Source: Escherichia phage vB_EcoM_phAPEC6. From it: a stretch of 64,000 nt of DNA. Shown one piece after another: positions 5,331-60,854 of this stretch; the first letter of the stretch is position 1, and each line of letters begins with the position of its first letter. Position numbers and translations under genes: made by a program. The DNA is taken from the sequence record MK817115.1; one strand, given 5' to 3'. The notes under the pieces are model-generated. The model was not told where the DNA came from, did not search any database, and worked only from the letters and a program-made list of their open reading frames with translations.

Positions 5331-5391
5331 AAAATTCTCCTTTAGGACAATGTATCATACAAAAATACCAGAGTCAACCCCTGGTACGAAT

Positions 5392-5973
5392 TTAATCCAT
5401 CATAAGTGGGATAATTGCCCATATCTTTTTCATAATCATATCTTCAGTAAAAACAAATGTTTTAGGAGCAGTATATGATATTGACACACCAAATGGAAGT
5501 TTGATTGCATCATCAATTATATTATGAATATCAAACCATGTTTTAACATAATCATACGGTGGAAGTTCATGAATTGTACTTAACTGAAAGTAATTCTCTT
5601 CACCAAAATCACTATATTCAATTTCACAAATTTTAGTGAATTGATGATTCCATTTAGATATAATACTATTTTTATTATTGTACATAGTAGTTCTATGCAT
5701 AAAACCATTTTTGCTAGTATGATTTGATATTACGTTTTCTTCAATGTCAGTATCTATTTTAAAATTCATATCAAAGTTGTAGTACGGACTTGACGATTCT
5801 TTGAATTTTAAATGTAAATTGCGATTGTTATTAATTTCAATTTCAATACAAAACACATCTGAATCAAAACGATTAAACTTGTAATCGTTATCTTCCGGTA
5901 GATTCTGTATTTTTTTCATAATACTAAGCATAGGGTGTACTACACTTTTAATAAAATCATTTGTTATTTTCAT
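5392..5973 (-). CDS. FamA paralog
   Basis: core motif EENYFQLSTIH. Confidence 0.6.
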   Translation of the reverse strand: MKITNDFIKSVVHPMLSIMKKIQNLPEDNDYKFNRFDSDVFCIEIEINNNRNLHLKFKESSSPYYNFDMNFKIDTDIEENVISNHTSKNGFMHRTTMYNNKNSIISKWNHQFTKICEIEYSDFGEENYFQLSTIHELPPYDYVKTWFDIHNIIDDAIKLPFGVSISYTAPKTFVFTEDMIMKKIWAIIPLMMD

Positions 5974-9209: not shown

Positions 9210-9765
9210 TCTTAAATAACTCCAAGTGCATGTCGTATAAATCTCTGAAGTCTTCATAGAAATCTTTTTCTACCAGAATATCCTTTAAACTAGGAAACTC
9301 TTCCATAATTTCTTCTATATCCGATTCTATGAAAAACCCTGATGGTTTATCGTAGTTTTGTAACAGATAACTGAAAGTAATAATGTAAAGAAGTTCATTA
9401 GGATTGTGAATTAAACTTAGCTGGAACATAGCTGATTCTAAATCGGATTCAGTACTAAGATCAACCCAACGTGAATTTCTATAATCAATTCGTACTTGAC
9501 TTGTATTTGGATTCCATGTGAAGCAATGTGTACCAATATGACCTATACAACCAACCCTTGTACTGTCTCCGGTATCAACACTGATATCAACAAATAGTTC
9601 AACACAGATATCGGATGATGTTACACGACCTTTTTTCAGAAATAAATCATTATCCTTACGAAATTGTTTGGATGAAAGAGTGTCAATGATGCACATCAAT
9701 GTTTTTGCAAATGCAACACAATGACGAAATTCAAGCCTATGAAATTGGTAATCATTGATATTCAT
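9202..9765 (-). CDS. FamA paralog
   Basis: core motif ESAMFQLSLIH. Confidence 0.6.
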   Translation of the reverse strand: MNINDYQFHRLEFRHCVAFAKTLMCIIDTLSSKQFRKDNDLFLKKGRVTSSDICVELFVDISVDTGDSTRVGCIGHIGTHCFTWNPNTSQVRIDYRNSRWVDLSTESDLESAMFQLSLIHNPNELLYIITFSYLLQNYDKPSGFFIESDIEEIMEEFPSLKDILVEKDFYEDFRDLYDMHLELFKNG

Positions 9766-36225: not shown

Positions 36226-36444
36226 ATTTTATACGATTCATATAAAAAGTCAATAACATTTTATTCGTAATACCCCTTTATCGAAGTCGCTAAGGTTACC
36301 CGCCCTTTAGCCCCCTACGCATTTTGCCATAGTCCAATCCCTTTTATTTCAAAAAAGTCAAGGGATTACCTATGCATTTTTTTAACGCATAATTTTAAAA
36401 ACGCCTTGACTTTTTTCTGAATCAGTACTAGATCCCTTTACGCA
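36226..36444 (-). promoter_or_regulatory. intergenic control region upstream of FamB array
   Basis: noncoding ~220 bp with minus-strand TTGACT-16-TAAAAT promoter-like site and repeated AAAAAGTCAA, TACGCATT and CCCTTTA words. Confidence 0.4.
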
Positions 36445-51899: not shown

Positions 51900-52139
51900 T
51901 TACATTCCAACCATTGCAGCACGGATCGCAGTAGTGCTATACTTAAAGCCGTCCGGCGTTGTAGTAGTACCGTTGGCTTTTAATCTGCGGTACATGCATT
52001 CCGCTGCAATATCTTTAGTTCTACTTTGTGCGATACAACTTTGTGCAAGCCGATACAATGACTCACCGTTATTAATCCATAAGGAAACATTCCAATGAGT
52101 TTTGTTTTTGTGCCCGTTGTAAGTTTTAGTACTAGCCAT
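51900..52139 (-). CDS. hypothetical protein (THWNVSLWINN paralog 1)
   Basis: paralog of 53937..54176 (GHKNKTHWNVSLWINN, TPDGFKYSTTAIRAAMVGM). Confidence 0.55.
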   Translation of the reverse strand: MASTKTYNGHKNKTHWNVSLWINNGESLYRLAQSCIAQSRTKDIAAECMYRRLKANGTTTTPDGFKYSTTAIRAAMVGM

Positions 52140-53065: not shown

Positions 53066-53094
53066 TTGACAGCACTATCCAGTACTGGTATAAT
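53066..53094 (+). promoter_or_regulatory. plus-strand consensus sigma70 promoter
   Basis: TTGACA-17-TATAAT; downstream CCCACCGGGTGC and GATACACTCCCGCACCC elements, no ORF. Confidence 0.45.
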
Positions 53095-53268
53095 ATACCC
53101 CATGACAACAGCTAACCCACCGGGTGCACAATTGTAACTGTACTAAACTACTTTTTCTATAGATACACTCCCGCACCCTATGGGCTACGGCTTATCTGCC
53201 AATGAATACATTATGCCAGTACTGACAAAATAAGTCAATACCGGCAATTGTAAAGATTTGTAAACTAC

Positions 53269-53936: not shown

Positions 53937-54176
53937 TTACATTCCAACCATTGCAGCACGGATCGCAGTAGTGCTATATTTGAATCCGTCCGGTGTTTTA
54001 TCTTGTCCAGTCTGTTCTAAAAATAACATCATATGACGGGCCGCATCATTACGATTAGTATTGGCGGCAATAAAGTCCTGGGCCAACCGGTATAATGATT
54101 CATCGTTATTAATCCAAAGGCTTACATTCCAATGAGTTTTGTTTTTGTGACCTAAGAACATTTTTGATTTAGCCAT
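53937..54176 (-). CDS. hypothetical protein (THWNVSLWINN paralog 2)
   Basis: start at Met14 (MAKSKMFLGHKNKTHW) by analogy with 51900..52139. Confidence 0.55.
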   Translation of the reverse strand: MAKSKMFLGHKNKTHWNVSLWINNDESLYRLAQDFIAANTNRNDAARHMMLFLEQTGQDKTPDGFKYSTTAIRAAMVGM

Positions 54177-54269
54177 TTTTTTAATCCTCTTATATAGTGG
54201 GGAACTATTCCCCACCTGATGTAAAACATTATACGCTTTTAAACATAGTTTGCAAGTACTTTATTAAAC
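54177..54269 (-). promoter_or_regulatory. promoter / 5' stem-loop / RBS cassette
   Basis: TTGCAA, TATAAT, GGGGAACTATTCCCCAC hairpin. Confidence 0.6.
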
Positions 54270-54632
54270 TTATTCGTAAATTTTGCCACTGTCAGCCCAT
54301 ACCAGGAAACGAGGCATATTATCCCATGCATCTTGTTTTAAATTTAAACCGTGTAATACTTCTGTACTTTCCATTCCTGGTACTGGTTTACTATACACCG
54401 CAAATAGTTCACCCATATACTGATAAGCCATCGTTAAATCACTGGCGATCATCTTATGGATCATCGCATCAAGCATCACGGTAGCGGCGTATTGTTCACG
54501 CTTAAGCGGTAACATTGCAATAAGTTCCCGATAAGCTGAAATGTGAATTTTTACCGTTTCAGCCGGAAGACCTTTCATCTCTTCACGGAAGTTAACCAGG
54601 TTAGCAATAATTTTATTGATTTGAGTCGCCAT
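54270..54632 (-). CDS. hypothetical protein
   Basis: start at Met20 (MATQINKII) behind AAGAGAGA RBS; first gene after the noncoding hub. Confidence 0.5.
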   Translation of the reverse strand: MATQINKIIANLVNFREEMKGLPAETVKIHISAYRELIAMLPLKREQYAATVMLDAMIHKMIASDLTMAYQYMGELFAVYSKPVPGMESTEVLHGLNLKQDAWDNMPRFLVWADSGKIYE

Positions 54633-54746
54633 CGTTTTCATCTCTCTTACAGTGTAGCGGGAAGTGTTCCCGCTCTCGATGTAAAACATTATACGCTTTT
54701 AAACATAGTTTGCAAGTACTTTCTACATGTACTTTTAAAATAGTTT

Positions 54747-54840
54747 TCTTTCTATATAGGAGTACTATTATTCAGTACTGCAACCATCCAGGGGAACTAT
54801 CTTTCTATATAGTAGTACTATTATTCAGTACTGAATCAAT
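54747..54840. repeat. direct repeat, 2 copies of ~36 bp
   Basis: CTTTCTATATAGGAGTACTATTATTCAGTACTG repeated ~60 bp apart. Confidence 0.55.
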
Positions 54841-54995
54841 CAACCAAATCACTACTACACCCCGTAAAACGGCCTCAGACGCATTCTAACGCATTAATAC
54901 ACCCAAGCTATACATTTGCACCATTCCAATCATTCCAGGGCTTTACGGGCCGTTTAAACGCGTTAAATTATTTTCAATTATTTTGTTTTTAGGTA

Positions 54996-55023
54996 TTGAC
55001 TCAGTACAGAAAAAGCGTATAAT
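54996..55023 (+). promoter_or_regulatory. plus-strand sigma70-like promoter
   Basis: TTGACT-16-TATAAT; followed by GGGTGCGG..CCGCACCC inverted repeat. Confidence 0.45.
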
Positions 55024-55210
55024 TACTATATAGACGCGAGAAAGCGGAAACCCCAGAGGGTGCGGAATTACGCCCAAAATTCAAGATATAAAAAAAGGAT
55101 ACACTCCCGCACCCTAGCAGGTAAACGCACTTTCTCAGTACTGAAATATAGTACCATAGTCCGGCCCAGGATAGCAAGCAAATTAATTAAAACTTTTTTC
55201 ATCCAGGGTA

Positions 55211-55238
55211 TTGCTTTATTTTTCCAGTACTGTATAAT
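55211..55238 (+). promoter_or_regulatory. plus-strand sigma70-like promoter
   Basis: TTGCTT-16-TATAAT; followed by GAGAAAG..CCCACCGGGTGC..TTACGCCCAAAATTCA element shared with 55040-55100. Confidence 0.45.
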
Positions 55239-55469
55239 AGTTCCATCAAGTCGAGAAAGACTCAAGCCCACCGGGTGCATAGTTACGCCCAAAATTCAGT
55301 ACTAGATTATTTTTTAAAAATATTCATCCAGGCGGTTGACATTGCCCCCAGTTTATAAGATAATGATTCCAGATTCAGAAAAATCTAACTCCAGATACTG
55401 CGGGGAAACTATCCCCACGCGGTAGGGGAACTATTGGAAAAAACAAAATAAAATTTTGATTTAGCCGTC

Positions 55470-55600
55470 TATACTTCCAGACGTGTAACCATCTAGCCGT
55501 TTAGCCGTCCAAACGTCTAGCCATCCAGCCCTCCAGAAATCTAGCCGTTTAGCCGTCTAGATGGATAGCCATCTTTACTTCCAGACTTCTGGAGGGCTAG
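55470..55600. repeat. iteron-like repeat cluster with inverted repeat
   Basis: CTAGCCGTTTAGCCGTC twice, multiple TAGCC(G/A)T words, 11-bp inverted repeat GCCCTCCAGAA/TTCTGGAGGGC. Confidence 0.5.
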
Positions 55601-56631
55601 ACATATCTACGTCCAAAATCCACCCAGGGTAACTACGCCCAAAATCCGTCAGTACTATACCATAGATCTATCTTTTGAAAGGGAGTATTCAGTACTGCCA
55701 TCATAGCCCTCACTATGTTACCCTAGGAGGATGAAGACTATCATGTAGTACTGAATACTGTTAGAGGGAATCCACCAGCACAAGCTGGTGGCATAATGCT
55801 TTAGATTAAAATCAGTACTGACACCATTCTGTTAATATCAGTACTGTTATTACGATTTTCATATGAGGTTCAAAAAGATGTACCACCACAGGAGGAACTA
55901 TCTTTTCTGTACTGTCTCACGACAGGAGGTAGAGTAAATGAATTGTTCGCAGCAACTCATCACCCTATGTAGAACATTATACAGTACTGAATCATAATGT
56001 CAATAGCTTTCTTTCATTATTCAGTACTGATATTCTTGAGAACTACCCGACTACAAACATCATTATATCCCACAAATCATAAACGTCCCAACGTAAATTT
56101 CAACTTTCGAAGATCCAACTTTTATTTCATAGGTACTCCAAAATTTTTAGGATCGAGATTTAGGATGGAGTACTAACCAACTTTTTGCTGGAGCCTCAAG
56201 GGGTAATGGAATTTTACCCCGAAGGGTAAAGGGGTAATTGAAATTAAGGTGAAAGTAATAATTCAGTACTAATCATTGCGTGATTACTTTTGATTACATT
56301 TGATGTAATTTGAAAAATGGAAAAGGAGCTTGGAAACTACAAAGTACGGCAGACTTCCTCTGCCTACTTAGTGGCATATCAGTACTGAATCCTTCCCGTG
56401 CATTCTTGAGCATTCTTGTCTATACTAATCAGTACTGAATCATATATAATCATTCTGTGATTCTACGGTGCTCATATAAATGTTTATATATGATTACTTA
56501 TGACTACCTATGATTACGGGGTTTAGCCTGGGGAGAATCCTAGTGATCGCATTTGTCCAGGCTGAATTTTAACAATTCGCCTGTACATAAAGGTTGTTCA
56601 CTAGGAGCTTCCCCTGTCTCTATGTGTTTAA

Positions 56632-56823
56632 TTACTTTCTATATATAAGCATTAAGATATAGTAGTACTGATTATACTGTACATTCTCTTTAATATTATA
56701 AGGGTCTATAGCAATCTCGGTACATCTGTTAAATGCATATCTATTAAATGCCAGTGGAATTATAGATCTAATCCATACTTGTTCATTTTCTTTTAGTTTA
56801 CTTATATAGAAGTTTTTATACAT
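56632..56823 (-). CDS. FamC mini-protein
   Basis: N-term MYKNFY, C-term ILMLIYRK; tandem array. Confidence 0.55.
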   Translation of the reverse strand: MYKNFYISKLKENEQVWIRSIIPLAFNRYAFNRCTEIAIDPYNIKENVQYNQYYYILMLIYRK

Positions 56824-56838
56824 AGTATTCTCTATTAA

Positions 56839-57021
56839 TTAATATGATAGTACTAGTGTTAGTACTGAGCACAATTGTTCTTTATAGTTCTTAGGGTATA
56901 TAGAATCTTTTATGCACTCATTGAAGTGCCATAGGTATAATCTTGGGTCGCATTCTTTATATATTCTTACGGGGACGAATGTTAGTTTTCTTATATAGAA
57001 TTCTTTATGTTCTTTATTCAT
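56839..57021 (-). CDS. FamC mini-protein
   Basis: N-term MNKEHKEFY, C-term LTLVLSY. Confidence 0.55.
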   Translation of the reverse strand: MNKEHKEFYIRKLTFVPVRIYKECDPRLYLWHFNECIKDSIYPKNYKEQLCSVLTLVLSY

Positions 57022-57022
57022 A

Positions 57023-57211
57023 TTAGTACCTGAATATAAGTAGGATTATGTTATAGTACTGGTTAGTACTGCAATGATTCTCTATACATCGATTAACAGT
57101 TATGGAATAGCTATATCTGGCGTAAGCATTATCCAGCGGGATTTTACATTGAGCACTTAGAGAAAGTACAGTAGGTAGTGTATTCAAATAGAAGTCTTTG
57201 TAATTATTCAT
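57023..57211 (-). CDS. FamC mini-protein
   Basis: N-term MNNYKDFY, C-term ILLIFRY. Confidence 0.55.
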   Translation of the reverse strand: MNNYKDFYLNTLPTVLSLSAQCKIPLDNAYARYSYSITVNRCIENHCSTNQYYNIILLIFRY

Positions 57212-57413
57212 ACAGGAATAGTATACCTATGATACCTGAGTACAGGTTAGTACTGTTACCATCTTCGTTTGCGTTTAAAGTCATTTGAATACAATTATTG
57301 TAGCATACTCTGCCGAAAAATGTATTAGTACTTAAAGGTGGAGTAGTCCTTAGAAACATTTGTTCTGAGGGGCTTATGTATTTGGAGTAGAATTCTTTAT
57401 GTTCTTTATTCAT
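57204..57413 (-). CDS. FamC mini-protein
   Basis: N-term MNKEHKEFY; near-duplicate of 60216..60425. Confidence 0.55.
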   Translation of the reverse strand: MNKEHKEFYSKYISPSEQMFLRTTPPLSTNTFFGRVCYNNCIQMTLNANEDGNSTNLYSGIIGILFLYE

Positions 57414-57418
57414 ATTAG

Positions 57419-57604
57419 TTAGTGTCTGTATATAAGTAATAGTAAGAATACGTACTGCACATCTTCATCTTTAGTATTGAGTACTGTACGTATTGCGTCA
57501 TTAAACAAGAATATAGTACTTGGGTCATGAGAATTTAAAGGGGTTCTGGGTACGGCATGTTTGTAGTTCCCTTTAACAAATTGTGTGTAGTATTCTCTAT
57601 GCAT
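57419..57604 (-). CDS. FamC mini-protein
   Basis: N-term MHREYY, C-term LLLLIYRH. Confidence 0.55.
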   Translation of the reverse strand: MHREYYTQFVKGNYKHAVPRTPLNSHDPSTIFLFNDAIRTVLNTKDEDVQYVFLLLLIYRH

Positions 57605-57605
57605 A

Positions 57606-57791
57606 TTAGTACCTATATATTAGGGCGATAATGTAGTACAATTCATATGGAATGTAATTTGGGGTGATCGCACACTGTGTATGGTAAATGAATTGTTCGG
57701 TATTTTTCTTATCCTTGATATCTATTGGGATTAGTGGTATAAGCATTTGGGAGTTTAGATCGAGATGGCTTAAGTAGAATTCTTTATGCAT
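57606..57791 (-). CDS. FamC mini-protein
   Basis: N-term MHKEFY, C-term IALIYRY. Confidence 0.55.
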   Translation of the reverse strand: MHKEFYLSHLDLNSQMLIPLIPIDIKDKKNTEQFIYHTQCAITPNYIPYELYYIIALIYRY

Positions 57792-57800
57792 ATTGTTCTT

Positions 57801-57989
57801 TTAGAATACGAAAGCTAGGTACAGGGTATGATACAGTACTCGATGATAGCTGTCAAAATCTAGTATACATGCTTTAGTGCACATAGTAAAGTACACTTTA
57901 TCGTTTTGTGCATTGATACCGCGAGGTTTATCTAATAGATTAGTACTGAGGTACATTGGGAAATATTTTGTGTAGTATTCTTTATGCAT
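57801..57989 (-). CDS. FamC mini-protein
   Basis: start at Met16 (MHKEYYTKYF); track ORF to 58034. Confidence 0.5.
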   Translation of the reverse strand: MHKEYYTKYFPMYLSTNLLDKPRGINAQNDKVYFTMCTKACILDFDSYHRVLYHTLYLAFVF

Positions 57990-57990
57990 A

Positions 57991-58173
57991 TTAGTACCTG
58001 AATATAAGTAGGATAGTGTTATATAGCTGGTCATAACTACTACTATTTTCTATACTTCGTTCTATGCAGTTATTGAATCCCAGTACTGCCAAATCGTTAT
58101 CCATAGGGACTTTGTATCTGGCGTAGTGTTCAAAAATGCTGGGGAGAAATTGTGTGTAGTATTCTTTGTGCAT
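57991..58173 (-). CDS. FamC mini-protein
   Basis: N-term MHKEYY, C-term ILLIFRY. Confidence 0.55.
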   Translation of the reverse strand: MHKEYYTQFLPSIFEHYARYKVPMDNDLAVLGFNNCIERSIENSSSYDQLYNTILLIFRY

Positions 58174-58174
58174 A

Positions 58175-58360
58175 TTAGTACCTATATATTAGTAAAAGGA
58201 TGTGATACAGTACTCGATTATAGTCTTCAATATATATCGAGGATTTAGTGCACTGAATGAAGTAGTCTTTTTCGTAGTTTTTTTCTATACCCAATGGTTC
58301 TGTTGGTACAAGGTGTTGGAGATACATTGGGAGTTTCTCTATGTAGTATTCTTTATACAT
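58175..58360 (-). CDS. FamC mini-protein
   Basis: N-term MYKEYY, C-term LLLIYRY; AAGGA RBS. Confidence 0.55.
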   Translation of the reverse strand: MYKEYYIEKLPMYLQHLVPTEPLGIEKNYEKDYFIQCTKSSIYIEDYNRVLYHILLLIYRY

Positions 58361-58369
58361 ATATTATCC

Positions 58370-58567
58370 TTAGTACTGGAACGCAAGGTACAGGGTGTGG
58401 TAAAGTTGTACTTGATAATTGTTTTCATTAGCTTCTTCATTAAGTACTTGTTCAGTACATGTACGGAAGTAATCAGCTTCATATATACAGTCAATACCGC
58501 GAGGTTCATCTTCTAATAGATTTCCTTGTAGAAACTTTGGTAGTTCTTTTATGTAGAATTCTTTATA
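58370..58567 (-). CDS. FamC mini-protein
   Basis: start at Met23 (MYKEFYIKELP); track ORF to 58633. Confidence 0.5.
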   Translation of the reverse strand, partial: YKEFYIKELPKFLQGNLLEDEPRGIDCIYEADYFRTCTEQVLNEEANENNYQVQLYHTLYLAFQY

Positions 58568-59234
58568 CATAGTTTGTAATATACGTAATGAGGTGATGCA
58601 TTTTCTTATCAGTACTGATAATTTCCTGTACATGTTTTGTCAGATTGTACGCGTTTTTATAGAGTACTGGATTATCGATTACAGTACTGTACATGAATAG
58701 TTCTTCTTCCTGTAGTTCTTTGTGTTCTAGTTCTTTGAGGAATTCTACAATTGATTTAGTTTCTTCTGTACGTTGTGCTTGCCAGAAGTGCATATTCTCG
58801 TGTACTTTTTTTGCACCTATACTGTATATACCACCCATTTGGAATTGTGCTGTATTGACATCGTGGGAGGTGTTACAATTCCCGAAGAAGTATGTATTCC
58901 CGAAGTATAGCATTAAAGTGCACGGGGTATTATCCAACTGCATATGGATGATGAAGGATGCGTTCTTTAGTACCTTTGTGCTCGTATTAGTACTCAATAC
59001 TTTTAAATCAGTATTATAGATATTCATATAATGAACAGCTATATTATTTTTCTTCATGTACAATCCCAGGTTCTTTGATACGTTAACTCCATTTGTACTG
59101 GATTTTTCCTTTTTATTTCGTTTCTTTAGTACATTCGGGTGATACGTATATGCAGATGTAACTGATTCTGCCTGAATACTATTGAGGTACTTAAAGTGCT
59201 TAAGGTATTGTTTGCTGTGTGCATTAAGTTTCAT
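58563..59234 (-). CDS. FamA-like protein embedded in FamC array
   Basis: 223 aa with QEEELFMYSTVIDN (FQxS-type core with M for Q). Confidence 0.55.
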   Translation of the reverse strand: MKLNAHSKQYLKHFKYLNSIQAESVTSAYTYHPNVLKKRNKKEKSSTNGVNVSKNLGLYMKKNNIAVHYMNIYNTDLKVLSTNTSTKVLKNASFIIHMQLDNTPCTLMLYFGNTYFFGNCNTSHDVNTAQFQMGGIYSIGAKKVHENMHFWQAQRTEETKSIVEFLKELEHKELQEEELFMYSTVIDNPVLYKNAYNLTKHVQEIISTDKKMHHLITYITNYV

Positions 59235-59244
59235 TTGGTTTCCT

Positions 59245-59424
59245 TTATATAGATGCCAGGGCGAGGATTTCCCTGTAGGGATTATCTTGTGTTAGTACAG
59301 CATAAATGCAGTTATTGAGATTAATATTTTTAGTACTTTTTGTTCCTAGTTTGTAGTACTTCACGAAGGTGTCGTACATGAAACGGTCTTTTATGGTTAT
59401 ACGTTCTCTATAGAATTGTTGCAT
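59245..59424 (-). CDS. FamC-like mini-protein (59 aa)
   Basis: hand-translated; N-term MQQFY, C-term EILALASI; just below track cutoff. Confidence 0.4.
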   Translation of the reverse strand: MQQFYRERITIKDRFMYDTFVKYYKLGTKSTKNINLNNCIYAVLTQDNPYREILALASI

Positions 59425-59432
59425 AGTATTCC

Positions 59433-59615
59433 TTAAATAGCGATTAGTTTCATTACTTCTCTGTATGTGTACTTTTCGTTTTGTGCATCTCTTGTGACGA
59501 CATATAGGAAGGTGTGTTTATCTTTTTTGTTCCCGCAATTGTAGAAAATATTGAACTTATTGAAGTTGAATCTTTCGGCGTGTTGTAGTTTAGTTAAATA
59601 GAATTCTATGTTCAT
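59433..59615 (-). CDS. FamC mini-protein
   Basis: N-term MNIEFY, C-term KYTYREVMKLIAI. Confidence 0.5.
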   Translation of the reverse strand: MNIEFYLTKLQHAERFNFNKFNIFYNCGNKKDKHTFLYVVTRDAQNEKYTYREVMKLIAI

Positions 59616-59623
59616 TTTCTTCC

Positions 59624-59809
59624 TTACATTTCAATAAGTTTCAGTACTGCTCGGTACGTGTACTTAGTTGTCAGTGCTTCTTTAATAGAAATACAGAAGT
59701 AATGTTGTTTGTCTCTTATACTGCCGCGTTTGTAGTACCACACATGGGAGTTGTGACTGTACTTGTCTCTGTCGGATAGTTGTTGGTAGTAGTAGCTTAT
59801 ATGATTCAT
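59624..59809 (-). CDS. FamC mini-protein
   Basis: C-term TKYTYRAVLKLIEM, paralog of 59433..59615. Confidence 0.5.
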   Translation of the reverse strand: MNHISYYYQQLSDRDKYSHNSHVWYYKRGSIRDKQHYFCISIKEALTTKYTYRAVLKLIEM

Positions 59810-60018
59810 TATAATGTAATTAGCCTTACTATATTAAAGTACTCGGTCCCTGGTGTACCTTGTAGTATATTACGCACGACATTTTTTTGGTGCTGGATGA
59901 TTGCTGAAGGTGCGGTTCTTTTTAGTTTTTTTAAAGTACTGAATTCTTGTTTAAGTATGAACTGTACATCTTTAGGGAGAATATCTATGTAGTACTGATG
60001 AATGTTTGTAGTTTTCAT
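59809..60018 (-). CDS. FamC mini-protein (QYYID subtype)
   Basis: HQYYIDILP and RNILQGTPG; paralog of 60427..60630. Confidence 0.5.
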   Translation of the reverse strand: MKTTNIHQYYIDILPKDVQFILKQEFSTLKKLKRTAPSAIIQHQKNVVRNILQGTPGTEYFNIVRLITL

Positions 60019-60028
60019 ATAGCACCTT

Positions 60029-60223
60029 TTAGAACTTAAAGATGAGGTTCAGGATAGAGCGGTACTTAGTTTCAGGGAACTGATGTTCTATTGCATAACG
60101 TGTCGCCATCCTGAAATCGTAATTGTAATATAGATTATCCTTTCTCATAGGTGGTGCTAAAGAGAATGATAGCTGGTCTTGCTTGTGTAGTTTACTACCA
60201 TAGAAATCTTTATGATTATTCAT
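60029..60223 (-). CDS. FamC mini-protein
   Basis: N-term MNNHKDFY, C-term LNLIFKF. Confidence 0.5.
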   Translation of the reverse strand: MNNHKDFYGSKLHKQDQLSFSLAPPMRKDNLYYNYDFRMATRYAIEHQFPETKYRSILNLIFKF

Positions 60224-60425
60224 AGAAGTAGATTAGTCCTATTAAACCTGAGTACATAATATTTTTGTTATTGCATTCGATTGCTTCTAGAGTACTACGT
60301 ATACAATTATTAAAGCAATCTCTACCGAAGTGAGTATTGGTACTTACAGGTGATACACTCCTTAGAAACAATTGTTCTTCGTTGCTAAGGTATTTGGTGT
60401 AGAATTCTTTATGTTCAGTATTCAT
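60216..60425 (-). CDS. FamC mini-protein
   Basis: N-term MNTEHKEFYTKYLS, near-duplicate of 57204..57413. Confidence 0.55.
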   Translation of the reverse strand: MNTEHKEFYTKYLSNEEQLFLRSVSPVSTNTHFGRDCFNNCIRSTLEAIECNNKNIMYSGLIGLIYFYE

Positions 60426-60426
60426 A

Positions 60427-60630
60427 TTAGTACTCGATTAAAAGGGCAAGGATATAATAGTATTGCATACTTTCTGCCCCTTGTAAAGCATTTCTTATGA
60501 TATTATTCCTGTACGAGTTCAGGAGTTTAGGACAACGTTTGTAGTGTATAATAGTATTTTGTGTATACAGTAGGCTTTCTCGTAGACCTTTTGTTGGTAG
60601 TGCATCGATGTAGTACTGTTCGATATTCAT
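60427..60630 (-). CDS. FamC mini-protein (QYYID subtype)
   Basis: EQYYIDALP and RNALQGAES. Confidence 0.5.
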   Translation of the reverse strand: MNIEQYYIDALPTKGLRESLLYTQNTIIHYKRCPKLLNSYRNNIIRNALQGAESMQYYYILALLIEY

Positions 60631-60854
60631 ATAGATAGCAGTACTAAGATTTTTGATAATTGTTTATTGCTATCCCCGCAGATGTTGCTGTGTAAAATAC
60701 TCACAATGAGGGTATCAATTGCATTGTTCATCATAAGGGTGCATCCTGGACTATTATAATTTTTTAGCTCAATTAGCCACGAACTATCCGAGAGAAACTC
60801 CCCGTACTCTAGTTCATTTAGAGTATTGAGGTAGTACTTAAGAGTATTTGTCAT
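60627..60854 (-). CDS. FamC-like mini-protein (first gene of array)
   Basis: ORF-track ORF, C-term KILVLLSI; divergent point of transcription. Confidence 0.45.
   Translation of the reverse strand: MTNTLKYYLNTLNELEYGEFLSDSSWLIELKNYNSPGCTLMMNNAIDTLIVSILHSNICGDSNKQLSKILVLLSI

What the first reader, a model, noticed from the sequence alone, without database searches (positions are those of the whole stretch)
54731..56631. 1.9 kb noncoding hub with iterons, short tandem repeats and plus-strand promoters
No credible ORF is present here. The region holds a 2 x ~36 bp direct repeat (54747-54840), consensus plus-strand promoters at 54996 and 55211 each followed by a related ~50 nt element (GAGAAAG..GGGTGC..TTACGCCCAAAATTCA), a cluster of TAGCC(G/A)T iterons with an 11-bp inverted repeat (55470-55600), and GATTAC, GGGTAA and CATTCTTGAG short repeats (56200-56560). 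It sits between two minus-strand gene blocks. Candidate replication origin, packaging site or small-RNA cluster.
Basis: partly seen in the sequence, partly recalled or inferred. Interest (0 to 1): 0.7.

Follow-up and report, generated by a model that had tools for sequence, protein, structure and literature searches.

The report
Phage genome end with MetJ-box array
This gene-free 1.9 kb stretch contains the physical end of a giant E. coli phage's chromosome, and its "iterons" are 19 in-phase copies of the binding site of the host methionine repressor MetJ, which also turns up near the ends of unrelated phages and which I could not find reported.

Summary
The region is non-coding, repeat-rich, conserved, and enriched in near-consensus sigma-70 promoters.

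The window is an Asteriusvirus jumbo phage (PBECO4/121Q group). Relatives with mapped ends start exactly at the reverse complement of window base 56368. The hub therefore straddles one boundary of a 20,076-bp direct terminal repeat (36293-56368).

This supports the "packaging site" reading. I found no replication-origin signals: no DnaA boxes, no iteron-type spacing, no clean synonymous-site GC skew switch.

The "TAGCC(G/A)T iterons" are 19 phased 8-bp units at 55463-55614. Their consensus is AGACGTCT, the E. coli MetJ "met box". The same scan recovers the real metJ/metB and metF operators (4 boxes each).

Arrays of 8-29 boxes occur in:
- three other jumbo-phage genera
- T5-like Aeromonas and Vibrio phages
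- a T7-like coliphage, inside its ~259-bp terminal repeat

All lie in early or terminal leader DNA. Length variants differ by whole 8-bp units.

I infer that host MetJ-SAM polymerises on this leader DNA. What that achieves is unresolved: roadblock or insulator, physiological gate, or repressor titration.

A perfect inward promoter at 56003 may make a ~165-nt structured RNA.

I found no published report of met-box arrays in phages.

The parts
54688..54715 (-). Sigma-70 promoter (TTGCAA-16-TATAAT) of the first protein gene of the terminal repeat (54270-54689). It marks the inner edge of the hub.
54747..54841 (.). Two 42-nt direct repeats (TCTTTCTATATAGnAGTACTATTATTCAGTACTG...), each carrying AGTACT and CAGTACTG, upstream of the promoter above. 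Length varies among relatives.
   Evidence: D8, 90% identity; segment is 136-193 nt in relatives
54996..55023 (+). P1, an outward-facing near-consensus sigma-70 promoter (TTGACT-16-TATAAT, 11/12).
55039..55133 (.). Imperfect palindrome unit: GAGAAAG..CCCCAGAGGGTGCGG ... CCGCACCCTAGCAGG..CTTTCTC. In the homologous Eneladusvirus unit, and in the window's paralog at 53066-53250, it is flanked by convergent promoters; here the minus-side -35/-10 was found by eye only. It belongs to a promoter-downstream repeat (CCCACNGGGTGC) with 10 copies, all inside the terminal repeat.
   Evidence: single-sequence folds are inconsistent
55211..55300 (+). P2 (TTGCTT-16-TATAAT, with CAGTACTG in the spacer) plus its downstream unit GAGAAAG..CCCACCGGGTGC..TACGCCCAAAATTC.
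   Evidence: (D6)
55336..55364 (+). P3, an outward-facing promoter (TTGACA-17-GATAAT, 11/12). Its transcript would enter the met-box array about 92 nt after the start.
55463..55614 (.). Array of 19 head-to-tail 8-bp units. Mean match is 5.8/8 to the MetJ met-box consensus AGACGTCT.
   Evidence: best 6-unit score 36, against a maximum of 25 elsewhere in 64 kb; real metJ/metB and metF operators recovered by the same scan; length variants of +8 and -16 bp
55605..55647 (+). Two of the four copies of the motif ACG(C/T)CCAAAAT. The other two are at 55070 and 55285. The motif occurs nowhere else in the window. Function unknown.
   Evidence: D10
55805..55969 (-). Candidate ~165-nt structured RNA transcribed inward from the perfect promoter. 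It has four hairpins and two invariant CCUCCU motifs. The last hairpin (55846-55813) is formed by two CAGTACTG palindromes and is followed by AUUUUAAUCU.
   Evidence: z = -3.7; terminator-like site; motifs invariant in EJP2; 5 compensatory and 11 broken of 46 pairs; 98-100% identical to three of the relatives: G17, vB_Ec-M-J, 121Q
55976..56003 (-). Perfect sigma-70 promoter TTGACA-16-TATAAT (12/12). It is the strongest inward-facing promoter near the DNA end, with its -35 starting 365 nt from the end; two weaker 10/12 inward sites (56103, 56091) lie closer to the end.
56132..56185 (.). Conserved terminal element AGTACTCCATCCTAAATCTCGATCCTAAAAATTTTGGAGTACC (read inward). It is a 9-bp inverted repeat around a TCCTAAA direct repeat. 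It is the only block near the end alignable across four genera, and is a candidate terminase-recognition site.
56200..56314 (.). GGGTAA/TTACCC repeats with a TTACCC-TTCG-GGGTAA hairpin (56200-56245), and 10-bp-period GATTAC repeats (56281-56314). This Asteriusvirus-specific filling lies between the conserved element and the end.
   Evidence: (D4)
56348..56368 (.). Terminal hairpin AGTAGGCAGA-GGAAG-TCTGCCgTACT (read inward) containing GAAGTC. The virion DNA end lies between 56368 and 56369.
   Evidence: literature
56369..56631 (.). Unique-sequence side of the boundary. It holds two CAGTACTG sites, CATTCTTGAG x2, a second GATTAC repeat set, and a 22-nt inverted repeat (56525-56546 / 56598-56619). 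It is less conserved (0.58-0.72).
   Evidence: (D4, I9)
36283..36293 (.). The other boundary of the terminal repeat: ...GAAGTCGCTA|AGGTTACCC. The repeat is 36293-56368 (20,076 bp).
   Evidence: G+C 0.383 inside against 0.322 and 0.342 outside

Best explanation
The hub is the non-coding leader at one boundary of a 20-kb direct terminal repeat (DTR) of an Asteriusvirus jumbo phage.

Shown:
- The fixed virion DNA end falls at 56368/56369, beside a terminal hairpin with a GAAGTC motif.
- A ~55-bp palindromic element about 190-235 bp inside the end is conserved across four genera.
- Near-consensus host-type promoters are enriched. One perfect promoter reads inward and three read outward, towards the end.
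- The 'iterons' are 19 exactly phased 8-bp units whose consensus equals the host MetJ operator.

Inferred mechanism:
1. Terminase recognises the conserved terminal element and cuts at 56368/56369 during packaging.
2. After injection this leader is the outermost DNA. Host RNA polymerase fires from its promoters. The first inward product may be a ~165-nt structured RNA.
3. Host MetJ, loaded with S-adenosylmethionine, binds cooperatively along the array. This gives a ~150-bp nucleoprotein block between the inward promoter at 56003 and the outward promoters P1-P3.
4. My preferred reading is a SAM-dependent roadblock or insulator. It would keep outward transcription from overrunning the end-proximal elements and would couple early events to host physiology.

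Step 4 is the weakest step.
For: Terminus:
- vB_Ec-M-J (annotated DTR 1-21,525), fEgEco12 and BF17 all begin AGTAGGCAGAGGAAGTCTGCC, the reverse complement of the window ending at 56368.
- The fEgEco12 ends were set by PhageTerm and checked by restriction digests (PMC13070987).
- In G17 the same base is record coordinate 20,668. That equals the DTR length PhageTerm gave for the near-identical phage Sharanji (PMC11895373).
- The second boundary maps to 36292/36293, with a G+C step at both boundaries.
- Records of three other genera have a related motif, (G/A)AAGTC at nt 12-17 from the record start, and share the conserved element. One of them, Klebsiella phage Muenster, is annotated with a PhageTerm-predicted 20,030-bp terminal repeat.

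Met boxes:
- 19 phased units average 5.8/8 matches to AGACGTCT. The best 6-unit score is 36, against a maximum of 25 elsewhere in 64 kb on both strands.
- The same scan finds the true E. coli metJ/metB and metF operators (4 boxes each, 6.0/8 and 5.5/8) and nothing else.
- Phage GGACGGCTAAACGGCTAGATGG differs from metF GGACGTCTAAACGGATAGATGT at 3 of 22 positions.
- The majority consensus of 80 pooled units is AGACGTCT at all 8 positions.
- MetJ operators are defined as tandem 8-bp AGACGTCT boxes (PMC4239095, PMC3413123).
- Array length differs among relatives by whole units: +8 bp in fEgEco12, -16 bp in G17, and BLAST spans of 166/174/158/150 bp.
- Arrays of 8-29 units occur in Eneladusvirus, Mimasvirus, T5-like Aeromonas and Vibrio phages, and T7-like PGT2, where the array sits inside the ~259-bp DTR, 38 nt from its start. 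All are in early or terminal non-coding DNA.
- All but one of the 80 matching records carry host names from Enterobacterales, Vibrio or Aeromonas, orders reported to have MetJ.
- No phage in 50,697 records encodes a MetJ homologue.

Promoters: 3 sites at >=11/12 against 0.07 expected.
Against: - No binding, transcription or end-mapping data exist for this phage. The terminus is transferred by sequence identity from relatives.
- The array does not overlap a promoter as real MetJ operators do. It lies about 92 nt downstream of P3 and about 355 nt downstream of the 56003 promoter.
- Xanthomonas phage XbC2 has an intact 15-unit array, although Xanthomonadales are reported to lack MetJ. Its genus otherwise infects Enterobacterales.
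- Klebsiella phage Muenster and T5 lack the array, so it is not essential for this kind of genome end.
- Distance from the end is not conserved: 38 nt in PGT2, about 650-900 nt in the jumbo phages, and mid-repeat in the T5-like phage.
- Choosing the reading phase by best match to AGACGTCT fixes the rotation only, but the consensus test is still post hoc.
- The proposed consequence (roadblock or gate) rests on position alone.
Confidence: 0.6

Rival explanations
1. The array binds MetJ but works as a sponge. As phage DNA replicates, with two repeat copies per genome and 19 boxes each, it titrates the host repressor. This de-represses methionine and SAM synthesis and uptake genes for the benefit of the phage. 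Position near the end would be incidental, or would serve only to double the dose and to act early.
For: - Same sequence evidence for MetJ boxes.
- The array is 4-10 times longer than the natural operators recovered here (4 boxes each; 'two or more' boxes).
- It lies in the duplicated terminal repeat.
- Repeated decoy sites are a documented way to sequester a transcription factor (PMC3322331, title and abstract listed).
- Related terminal regions carry other host-repressor site clusters. Klebsiella phage Muenster and T5 have Fur-box-like repeats, and Aeromonas phage AhSzq-1 has six perfect DnaA boxes.
Against: - A sponge could sit anywhere in the genome, yet in three unrelated families the arrays lie in terminal or early leader DNA.
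- A single incoming genome offers only 38 boxes.
- From my own knowledge, not tested here: T5-type phages destroy host DNA early, which would make de-repression pointless for them.
Confidence: 0.2
2. The 8-bp array is bound by something other than MetJ. Candidates are a phage-encoded ribbon-helix-helix or other protein, another host factor that reads CTAG at 8-bp spacing such as TrpR, or the terminase small subunit as part of the packaging signal. The resemblance to met boxes would then be coincidental.
For: - XbC2, isolated on Xanthomonas (reported to lack MetJ), keeps a 15-unit array scoring 5.9/8.
- Ribbon-helix-helix proteins in general read short tandem repeats (PMC3413123).
- The most conserved part of each unit is the CTAG junction.
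- The array lies within 1 kb of a terminase cut site.
Against: - The periodic consensus equals AGACGTCT at 8 of 8 positions. The chance for a given circular 8-mer is about 1e-4.
- Local strings nearly reproduce the metF operator.
- The array-bearing phages belong to three unrelated families, and no shared neighbouring protein was found. A blastp of ORFs next to four arrays against all window ORFs gave only DUF7249.
- DUF7249 is widespread in phage lineages that were not among the array hits, and it returned no Aeromonas and few Vibrio records, with none of the Demerecviridae array carriers among the rows shown (compare).
- No MetJ-like protein is found in the window or in the phage collection.
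- No similar array is found in plasmids, which argues against a partition-site relative at BLAST sensitivity.
Confidence: 0.15
3. The hub is primarily a cluster of small regulatory RNAs. P1-P3 and the perfect 56003 promoter would make short non-coding RNAs, including a ~165-nt RNA with two exposed CCUCCU anti-Shine-Dalgarno-like motifs. These would act on host or phage mRNAs. The repeats would be RNA-level elements.
For: - Strong promoters are enriched and no ORF is conserved.
- The minus-strand 171-nt segment folds better than all 200 shuffles (z = -3.7) and ends in a terminator-like hairpin.
- The CCTCCT motifs and the promoter are invariant in the ~70%-identical phage EJP2, with 5 compensatory pairs.
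- This segment is the best-conserved part of the hub.
Against: - No Rfam family matches.
- Only one divergent homologue is available, and 11 of 46 pairs are broken in it.
- No plus-strand terminators were found for P1-P3.
- Folds of the ten CCCACNGGGTGC units are inconsistent.
- The good fold of the P3 transcript is expected from palindromic boxes and does not discriminate.
- This reading does not explain the exact 8-bp phasing or the whole-unit indels. It is compatible with the best explanation rather than exclusive of it.
Confidence: 0.2
4. The hub is a replication origin. Iterons would bind an initiator, promoters would provide transcriptional activation or R-loop priming, and the GC-skew minimum would mark the start of bidirectional replication.
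For: - Cumulative GC skew of the window has its minimum at about 56 kb, although genes on both sides are on the minus strand.
- The region has many repeats, strong promoters and A+T-rich stretches.
- From my own knowledge: T4-type origins use promoter-primed R-loops.
Against: - The repeats have an 8-bp period and match a repressor operator, not 17-22-bp origin iterons.
- There are no DnaA boxes in the hub and no initiator gene is adjacent.
- Plus-strand GC skew at third codon positions rises stepwise across the window (about -0.09, -0.04, +0.07, +0.30) rather than switching at the hub. The large effect comes from codon positions 1-3 of a ~60-aa gene family at 56.6-60.9 kb.
- The skew turn coincides with a mapped DNA end, which gives an independent reason for a compositional boundary.
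Confidence: 0.06

Closest known systems
Bacteriophage T5 'Repeat Region 3' (injection-stop region) at the inner edge of the left terminal repeat
   Same: - Both are untranslated, highly repetitive regions of 1.2-1.9 kb that straddle one boundary of a long direct terminal repeat. T5 overruns into unique DNA by 270 bp; this hub overruns by 263 bp.
- Both are better conserved than many neighbouring genes.
- Both carry clustered host-protein sites: DnaA boxes in T5 (bioRxiv 10.1101/866236; T5 annotation).
- T5-like Aeromonas and Vibrio phages carry the very same met-box arrays in their pre-early non-coding DNA.
   Different: - There is no detectable sequence homology between T5 itself and the hub, and T5 has no met-box run.
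- The hub has no DnaA boxes.
- Two-step injection is not known for Asteriusvirus.
- In AhSzq-1 the array lies between convergent gene blocks inside the first-step DNA rather than at the repeat boundary.
E. coli MetJ operators (tandem met boxes of metJ/metB, metF and others)
   Same: The 8-bp unit, the consensus AGACGTCT, the head-to-tail arrangement without spacers, and similar per-box degeneracy (5.5-6.0/8 in real operators, 5.8/8 here).
   Different: - 19 boxes here (8-29 in other phages) against 2-5 in cellular operators.
- The array does not overlap a promoter.
- It is not associated with methionine genes.
- It is located on phage terminal DNA.
- Binding has not been demonstrated.
Fixed-end, direct-terminal-repeat packaging sites of T7/T3, including the short-repeat arrays next to the T7 terminal repeat (from my own knowledge of Dunn & Studier 1983; not checked here)
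   Same: Fixed cut sites at both repeat boundaries, arrays of short tandem repeats close to the ends, and promoters near and pointing towards the ends. The T7-like phage PGT2 has a met-box array inside its ~259-bp repeat.
   Different: - The repeat here is 20 kb rather than 160-260 bp.
- The T7 repeats have a different unit and no known host-repressor match.
- Terminase recognition elements have not been defined here.
PeSL cassettes (promoter-early stem-loop) of T4-like phages
   Same: Dispersed, conserved intergenic cassettes that combine a near-consensus sigma-70 promoter with a stem-loop and are spread through early, plastic gene regions (PMC4122927). This matches the promoter + CCCACNGGGTGC units (10 copies in the repeat, 3-4 of them in the hub) and the AGTACTTGCAA-N17-TATAAT promoters.
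   Different: - In PeSLs the stem-loop lies upstream of the promoter and the cassette ends with a ribosome-binding site and start codon.
- Here the conserved element lies about 20 nt downstream of the start site.
- Several units face each other as convergent pairs with no gene between them.

Membership tests
Boundary or cut site of a direct terminal repeat (fixed-end packaging) | The physical end of virion DNA maps to a fixed nucleotide. | tested here: met
   By identity to relatives with mapped ends.
- Three records start at the reverse complement of window 56368.
- The G17 coordinate 20,668 equals the Sharanji PhageTerm DTR length.
- fEgEco12 ends were checked by restriction digests.

Not measured on this phage's own virion DNA.
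Boundary or cut site of a direct terminal repeat (fixed-end packaging) | The sequence between the two boundaries is present twice per virion genome (2x read depth). | not testable with these tools
   No reads are available. Indirect support: records with both copies (vB_Ec-M-J, fEgEco12, G17) match the hub at two places, and there is a G+C step at both boundaries in the window.
Boundary or cut site of a direct terminal repeat (fixed-end packaging) | Conserved cis elements at the cut sites across relatives. | tested here: met
   - (G/A)AAGTC at nt 12-17 from the record start in four genera.
- GAAGTCGC next to the other boundary.
- A ~55-bp element conserved in four genera.

Their role in terminase recognition is inferred.
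MetJ operator (met-box array) | 8-bp units matching AGACGTCT. | tested here: met
   19 units average 5.8/8. The pooled 80-unit consensus is AGACGTCT. Real operators score 5.5-6.0/8 in the same scan.
MetJ operator (met-box array) | Two or more boxes in tandem with exact 8-bp register. | tested here: met
   There are 19 consecutive units in one phase, and the other seven phases score at background. Indels among relatives are +8 and -16 bp.
MetJ operator (met-box array) | The host encodes MetJ. | tested here: met
   E. coli metJ is present. All Enterobacterales, Vibrionales and Aeromonadales genomes examined in that study encode MetJ (PMC4239095). Exception: XbC2, isolated on Xanthomonas, a group reported to lack MetJ.
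MetJ operator (met-box array) | Overlaps and represses a promoter of a methionine-regulon gene. | tested here: not met
   The array starts about 92 nt downstream of the P3 start and about 355 nt downstream of the 56003 promoter start. There is no methionine gene nearby. It is therefore not a conventional operator. I file it as 'built from met boxes', not as a member of the met regulon.
MetJ operator (met-box array) | Binds the MetJ-SAM holorepressor. | not testable with these tools
   Requires EMSA or footprinting, or ChIP.
Iteron-type replication origin | Initiator iterons (typically 17-22 bp, helically phased), DnaA boxes, an A+T-rich unwinding element and an adjacent initiator gene. | tested here: not met
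   The period is 8 bp. There are no DnaA boxes. The neighbouring proteins have no known function and none matches an initiator family. There is no clean synonymous-site skew switch.
T5 injection-stop region (Repeat Region 3) | A repeat-rich untranslated region straddling a terminal-repeat boundary. | tested here: met
T5 injection-stop region (Repeat Region 3) | Paired DnaA boxes in IRD'-spacer-IRC', and two-step DNA transfer. | tested here: not met
   There are no DnaA boxes in the hub. Two-step transfer cannot be tested here.
Known RNA families (Rfam 15) | A covariance-model match at the gathering score. | tested here: not met
   There were 0 hits in the whole window. Only two chance-level hits (E = 0.15-0.21) appeared in the hub with permissive filters. 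There are no tRNA or tmRNA genes.
PeSL-type dispersed promoter/stem-loop cassettes | A conserved sigma-70 promoter plus stem-loop, repeated in the intergenic spaces of early regions. | tested here: inconclusive
   Ten promoter-linked CCCACNGGGTGC units are confined to the repeat. However, the element lies downstream of the promoter, not upstream, and no consistent stem-loop is predicted.

The most novel reading that the evidence does not exclude
Phages from three unrelated families package fixed-end, terminally repeated genomes: Rak2-like jumbo myoviruses, T5-like siphoviruses and a T7-like podovirus. They have independently built long, exactly phased arrays of a host repressor's operator into their terminal or first-expressed DNA. 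The operator is MetJ boxes here; Fur-like and DnaA boxes appear in sister lineages.

The phage would recruit a cofactor-dependent host repressor filament (MetJ-SAM, Fur-Fe, DnaA-ATP) as a cis-acting device. That device would read host physiological state and gate genome entry, early transcription or end processing. This would be a class of phage-host interaction that, as far as I could find, has not been described.
Probability: 0.3. Interest if true: 0.85.

Novelty: new variant of a known kind. Interest (0 to 1): 0.72.

Why it matters
It settles what the region is: the chromosome end and leader of a 350-kb phage. That can guide correct genome orientation and annotation in this genus, where many records are arbitrarily permuted.

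The met-box arrays give a concrete, cheap experiment on an open question, namely what the conserved repeat-laden non-coding regions at phage genome ends (including the T5 injection-stop region) actually do. The experiment combines purified MetJ + SAM, a metJ-null host, and an array deletion or phase-shift mutant.

If MetJ is used, phages would be exploiting a metabolite-sensing host repressor in cis. That bears on how infection is coupled to host physiology, on engineering jumbo and T5- or T7-like therapeutic phages, and on synthetic repressor-decoy design.

Tried and rejected
- **Rfam** on the whole window and, with permissive filters, on the hub: nothing meaningful. **ARAGORN:** no tRNA or tmRNA.
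- **Coding potential:** the seven largest or best-looking ORFs and micro-ORFs are not conserved as reading frames. My micro-ORF coordinates there were off by one. The one with a good AGGAGG-N8-ATG has no ATG at that spacing in EJP2 (by eye from the alignment).
- **Origin signals:** the DnaA-box scan was negative, and the codon-position skew analysis showed no clean switch. I did not fetch a full genome for whole-genome skew. Gene orientation and the odd small-gene family would confound it.
- **Phage-encoded MetJ:** tblastn of E. coli MetJ against 50,697 phage records found only three records carrying a near-identical (99%) copy of the bacterial metJ gene, two of them Salmonella enterica contigs. 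phmmer against window ORFs found nothing.
- **Shared neighbouring binder protein:** the only shared protein is DUF7249/phrog_871, which is widespread and uncorrelated with arrays.
- **Array-like sequences** in plasmids and in 5,426 E. coli genomes: none at BLAST sensitivity.
- **Degenerate IUPAC patterns** to census arrays: local tests showed they miss most real arrays. One IMG/VR scan returned only 121Q, PGT2 (both ends), GAP32 and one chance coding hit. It is not a usable census.
- **Folding of the ten CCCACNGGGTGC units:** no consistent structure.
- **An apparent 1.2-1.4 kb insertion** in PBECO4 and the Salmonella phage records came from how BLAST pieces were joined. The difference is an extra 234-bp gene outside the hub.
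- **Literature** searches for met boxes in phages and for CAGTACTG: nothing relevant.


Full report
**What the window is**

The hub (54600-56700) matches 41 phage records. Of these, 34 cover at least 80% of it, at 88-97% identity. All are jumbo myoviruses of the genus Asteriusvirus (PBECO4, 121Q, G17 and others) infecting E. coli or Salmonella. In the annotated relatives G17 and 121Q the region carries no gene and lies between minus-strand genes. No Rfam family and no tRNA gene is found anywhere in the window.

**Check of the observation**

All the listed elements are present.
- The direct repeat is 2 x 42 nt, 90% identical.
- The two plus-strand promoters are followed by a related 67-nt element (72% identity).
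- The 'iterons' are a strict 8-bp-period array.
- The GATTAC, GGGTAA and CATTCTTGAG repeats are present.

Promoter-like sites scoring at least 11/12 number 3, against 0.07 expected.

The mechanical ORFs are interrupted by stops and frameshifts in relatives. Per-100-bp identity to five relatives is 0.83-0.94 inside the hub, the same as in the adjacent genes. The region is therefore non-coding and conserved, not filler.

**The hub contains the physical end of the genome**

A search with 54990-55670 showed that several records place this sequence about 700 nt from their first base. In one record it lies inside an annotated 'Direct Terminal Repeats' feature.

The evidence for the end position:
- vB_Ec-M-J (DTR 1-21,525), fEgEco12 and BF17 all begin AGTAGGCAGAGGAAGTCTGCCGTACTTTG. 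This is the reverse complement of the window ending at 56368.
- The fEgEco12 ends were determined with PhageTerm (20,993-bp repeats) and confirmed by restriction digests (PMC13070987).
- In G17, which has the window's orientation, the same base is record coordinate 20,668. That is exactly the repeat length PhageTerm gave for the near-identical phage Sharanji (PMC11895373).

The other boundary, transferred from vB_Ec-M-J and fEgEco12, falls at 36292/36293. In this window the terminal repeat is therefore 36293-56368 (20,076 bp). G+C is 0.383 inside, against 0.322 and 0.342 outside.

The hub is the upstream leader of all the minus-strand early genes of the repeat. It overruns the boundary by 263 bp.

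**Elements at the end**

The last 21 nt form an imperfect hairpin that contains GAAGTC. Records of three other genera have related sequence at their first bases: Alcyoneusvirus Muenster (annotated with a PhageTerm-predicted 20,030-bp repeat), Eneladusvirus BF/pEa_SNUABM_12, and Mimasvirus XbC2. Each has (G/A)AAGTC at nt 12-17.

GAAGTCGC also lies 2-4 nt outside the other Asteriusvirus boundary. The window holds only 20 GAAGTC/GACTTC sites in 64 kb, so one within 15 nt of each boundary is unlikely by chance. This observation is post hoc.

One ~55-bp block is the only part near the end that aligns across all four genera. It reads AGTACTCCATCCTAAATCTCGATCCTAAAAATTTTGGAGTACC and occupies window 56132-56185. 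I take it as the best candidate for a terminase-recognition element. This is inference.

**The 'iterons' are met boxes**

Read on the inward strand, the array is AGACGGCT AAACGGCT AGATTTCT GGAGGGCT GGATGGCT AGACGTTT GGACGGCT AAACGGCT AGATGGTT ACACGTCT and so on. MetJ operators are tandem 8-bp boxes with consensus AGACGTCT (PMC4239095, PMC3413123).

The evidence that the array is built from met boxes:
- In one phase, 19 consecutive units at 55463-55614 match the consensus at 4-7 of 8 positions (mean 5.8). The other seven phases score at background.
- The best 6-unit sum is 36, against at most 25 anywhere else in the window on either strand.
- The same procedure, run on 5.4 kb of E. coli K-12, returns only the known metJ/metB and metF operators. 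These are AGAAGTTT AGATGTCC AGATGTAT TGACGTCC (6.0/8) and ..GGACGTCT AAACGGAT AGATGTGC (5.5/8).
- Eighty pooled units from four phages give AGACGTCT as the majority base at all eight positions. Choice of phase fixes only the rotation, so this agreement is not built in.
- The array evolves by whole boxes. fEgEco12 has +8 bp and G17 has -16 bp. BLAST spans across the genus are 166, 174, 158 and 150 bp.

**Distribution of the arrays**

| Phage or group | Units |
|---|---|
| 121Q | 19 |
| G17 | 16 |
| Eneladusvirus (Serratia, Erwinia) | 16-17 |
| Mimasvirus (XbC2, GAP32) | 15 |
| Aeromonas AhSzq-1 (T5-like Demerecviridae) | 29 |
| Vibrio Pontus (T5-like Demerecviridae) | 17 |
| Vibrio pVp-1 (T5-like Demerecviridae) | 9 |
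| E. coli PGT2 (Autographiviridae) | 8 |

- The AhSzq-1 array scores 6.1/8. It lies in the non-coding DNA next to the pre-early A1/A2 genes.
- The PGT2 array lies 38 nt from the start of each copy of a ~259-bp terminal repeat.
- All but one of the 80 matching records carry host names from Enterobacterales, Vibrio or Aeromonas, orders reported to have MetJ.
- The exception is XbC2, isolated on Xanthomonas. Its genus otherwise infects Enterobacterales.
- No phage record encodes a MetJ homologue.
- No similar array is found in plasmids or E. coli genomes at BLAST sensitivity.
- ORFs next to four of the arrays share only DUF7249 with the window. DUF7249 is widespread and uncorrelated with arrays.
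- T5 itself and Klebsiella phage Muenster lack the array. They carry Fur-box-like repeats in the equivalent regions, and AhSzq-1 adds six perfect DnaA boxes.
- Four full-text searches found no report of met boxes in phage genomes.

**Layout and likely working**

Reading inward from the end:

| Distance from end (nt) | Element |
|---|---|
| 0-20 | terminal hairpin |
| 55-170 | GATTAC and GGGTAA repeats |
| 185-235 | conserved terminal element |
| 365-392 | perfect inward promoter |
| about 400-565 | predicted 165-nt structured RNA |
| 755-905 | met-box array |
| about 1,005-1,370 | outward promoters P3, P2, P1 with their conserved downstream units |
| about 1,650-1,680 | first gene's promoter |

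- The predicted RNA has z = -3.7 and two invariant CCUCCU motifs. Its terminal hairpin is made of two CAGTACTG palindromes plus a U-rich tail.
- The array therefore sits between convergent promoters, and between the promoter cluster and the DNA end. It also lies between the record start and promoter-like units in Eneladusvirus and Mimasvirus.
- I infer cooperative MetJ-SAM binding, which would form a block of about 150 bp.
- My preferred consequence is a SAM-dependent roadblock or insulator, or a physiological gate. Repressor titration is the main alternative. None of this is demonstrated.

**Origin hypothesis**

Cumulative GC skew in the window has its minimum at about 56 kb. Three points argue against an origin.
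- Plus-strand skew at third codon positions rises stepwise across the window (about -0.09, -0.04, +0.07, +0.30) rather than switching at the hub.
- The large effect comes from a family of ~60-aa genes to the right, whose coding strand is C-rich at all codon positions.
- There are no DnaA boxes, no iteron-type spacing and no initiator gene.

I rate the origin reading at 0.06.

**Other repeats**

The element downstream of the plus-strand promoters (…CCCACNGGGTGC…) is not hub-specific. Ten copies occur, all inside the terminal repeat, each about 20 nt downstream of a sigma-70 promoter, and on both strands. Some form convergent pairs. They resemble the dispersed PeSL cassettes of T4-like phages in distribution but not in layout. 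Their predicted folds are inconsistent.

The palindrome CAGTACTG occurs 58 times in the window against about 0.7-0.9 expected, and AGTACT occurs 271 times against 19. Density is highest in the hub, at 5.8 per kb. It sits in promoter spacers and about 25 bp upstream of the -35 boxes (by eye). It is probably a clade-wide regulatory site. I did not resolve it.

**Verdict**

The terminus itself could be read off published relatives. The anatomy of the hub, and above all the MetJ-box array and its recurrence in unrelated fixed-end phages, appears to be new. It is directly testable.

Noticed in passing
whole window; densest in 54731-56631: The palindrome CAGTACTG occurs 58 times (about 0.7-0.9 expected), and AGTACT occurs 271 times (19 expected). 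Density is 5.8 per kb in the hub, 1.25 in the terminal-repeat genes and 0.5 in the left unique region. It lies in promoter spacers, about 25 bp upstream of early -35 boxes, and in pairs that can form 8-bp stems. It is also visible in Klebsiella, Serratia/Erwinia and XbC2 relatives. It is probably the site of an unknown regulator.
   Followed up: partly
L004 (Klebsiella phage Muenster) 787-837, 1073-1098, 1306, 2422-2446; L010 (T5) 9574-9634; L011 (Aeromonas phage AhSzq-1) 3874 and 5374-5893: Relatives that lack the met-box array carry other host-repressor site clusters in the equivalent terminal or pre-early non-coding DNA. Muenster has 8 and T5 Repeat Region 3 has 3 Fur-box-like repeats (<=5 mismatches of 19 to GATAATGATAATCATTATC, best 3). 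AhSzq-1 has six perfect DnaA boxes next to its 29-box array. The window hub has none of either.
   Followed up: partly
window 56632-60854 (minus strand): A tandem family of about 17 small genes of roughly 56-77 aa (phrog_11711 and relatives; MxKE(F/Y)Y...LIYRY-type sequences). They are tightly packed. Their coding strand is C-rich at all three codon positions (GC3 skew -0.30, against -0.07 in the terminal repeat). This produces the apparent GC-skew turn at the hub.
   Followed up: partly
window 36283-36293: The other boundary of the terminal repeat (...GAAGTCGCTA|AGGTTACCCGCCC) coincides with a G+C step from 0.32 to 0.38. It carries the same GAAGTCGC motif that Eneladusvirus and Muenster have 12-19 nt from their record starts.
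   Followed up: yes
window 37719, 39983, 43292, 46626, 53184, 55121 (minus strand); 51178, 53116, 55051, 55267 (plus strand): Ten copies of CCCACNGGGTGC, each about 20 nt downstream of a sigma-70 promoter, all inside the terminal repeat. Three tail types follow the motif: ..GATCCGTC.., ..AATTACGCCCAAAATTC and ..AGTGTATC... Some copies form convergent promoter pairs around an imperfect ~100-bp palindrome.
   Followed up: partly
window 55070, 55285, 55609, 55635 (plus strand): The motif ACG(C/T)CCAAAAT occurs four times, only in the hub. Two copies lie downstream of P1 and P2, and two flank the terminus side of the met-box array. It is also present in XbC2. No explanation.
   Followed up: no
window 53937-54215 and 51900-52139 (minus strand); L013 (PGT2) 2123-2362: Two paralogous early proteins (DUF7249 / phrog_871). 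One is 75% identical in amino acids to gene 3 of the T7-like phage PGT2. This shows exchange of early-region modules between a podovirus and the jumbo phage's terminal repeat. Homologues occur in 287 phage records, including phi92- and rV5-like phages and cyanophages.
   Followed up: yes
L013/L023 (PGT2) nt 1-20: The left end of the T7-like phage PGT2 (TCCAACACAAATGAGGTCGCG) has GAGGTCGC at nt 13-20. This resembles the GAAGTCGC found 12-19 nt from the record starts of Eneladusvirus. It could be chance, or a shared end motif travelling with the met-box array.
   Followed up: no
window 55805-55969 (minus strand): The predicted first transcript from the genome end carries two CCUCCU motifs, identical to the core of the 16S rRNA anti-Shine-Dalgarno sequence. 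Both are invariant in the ~70%-identical phage EJP2 while the flanks change. The motifs could pair with ribosome-binding sites.
   Followed up: partly
window 800-30000 (minus strand): A long uninterrupted run of about 60 tightly packed ORFs, mostly 100-200 aa. Many contain CAGTACTG within coding sequence.
   Followed up: no
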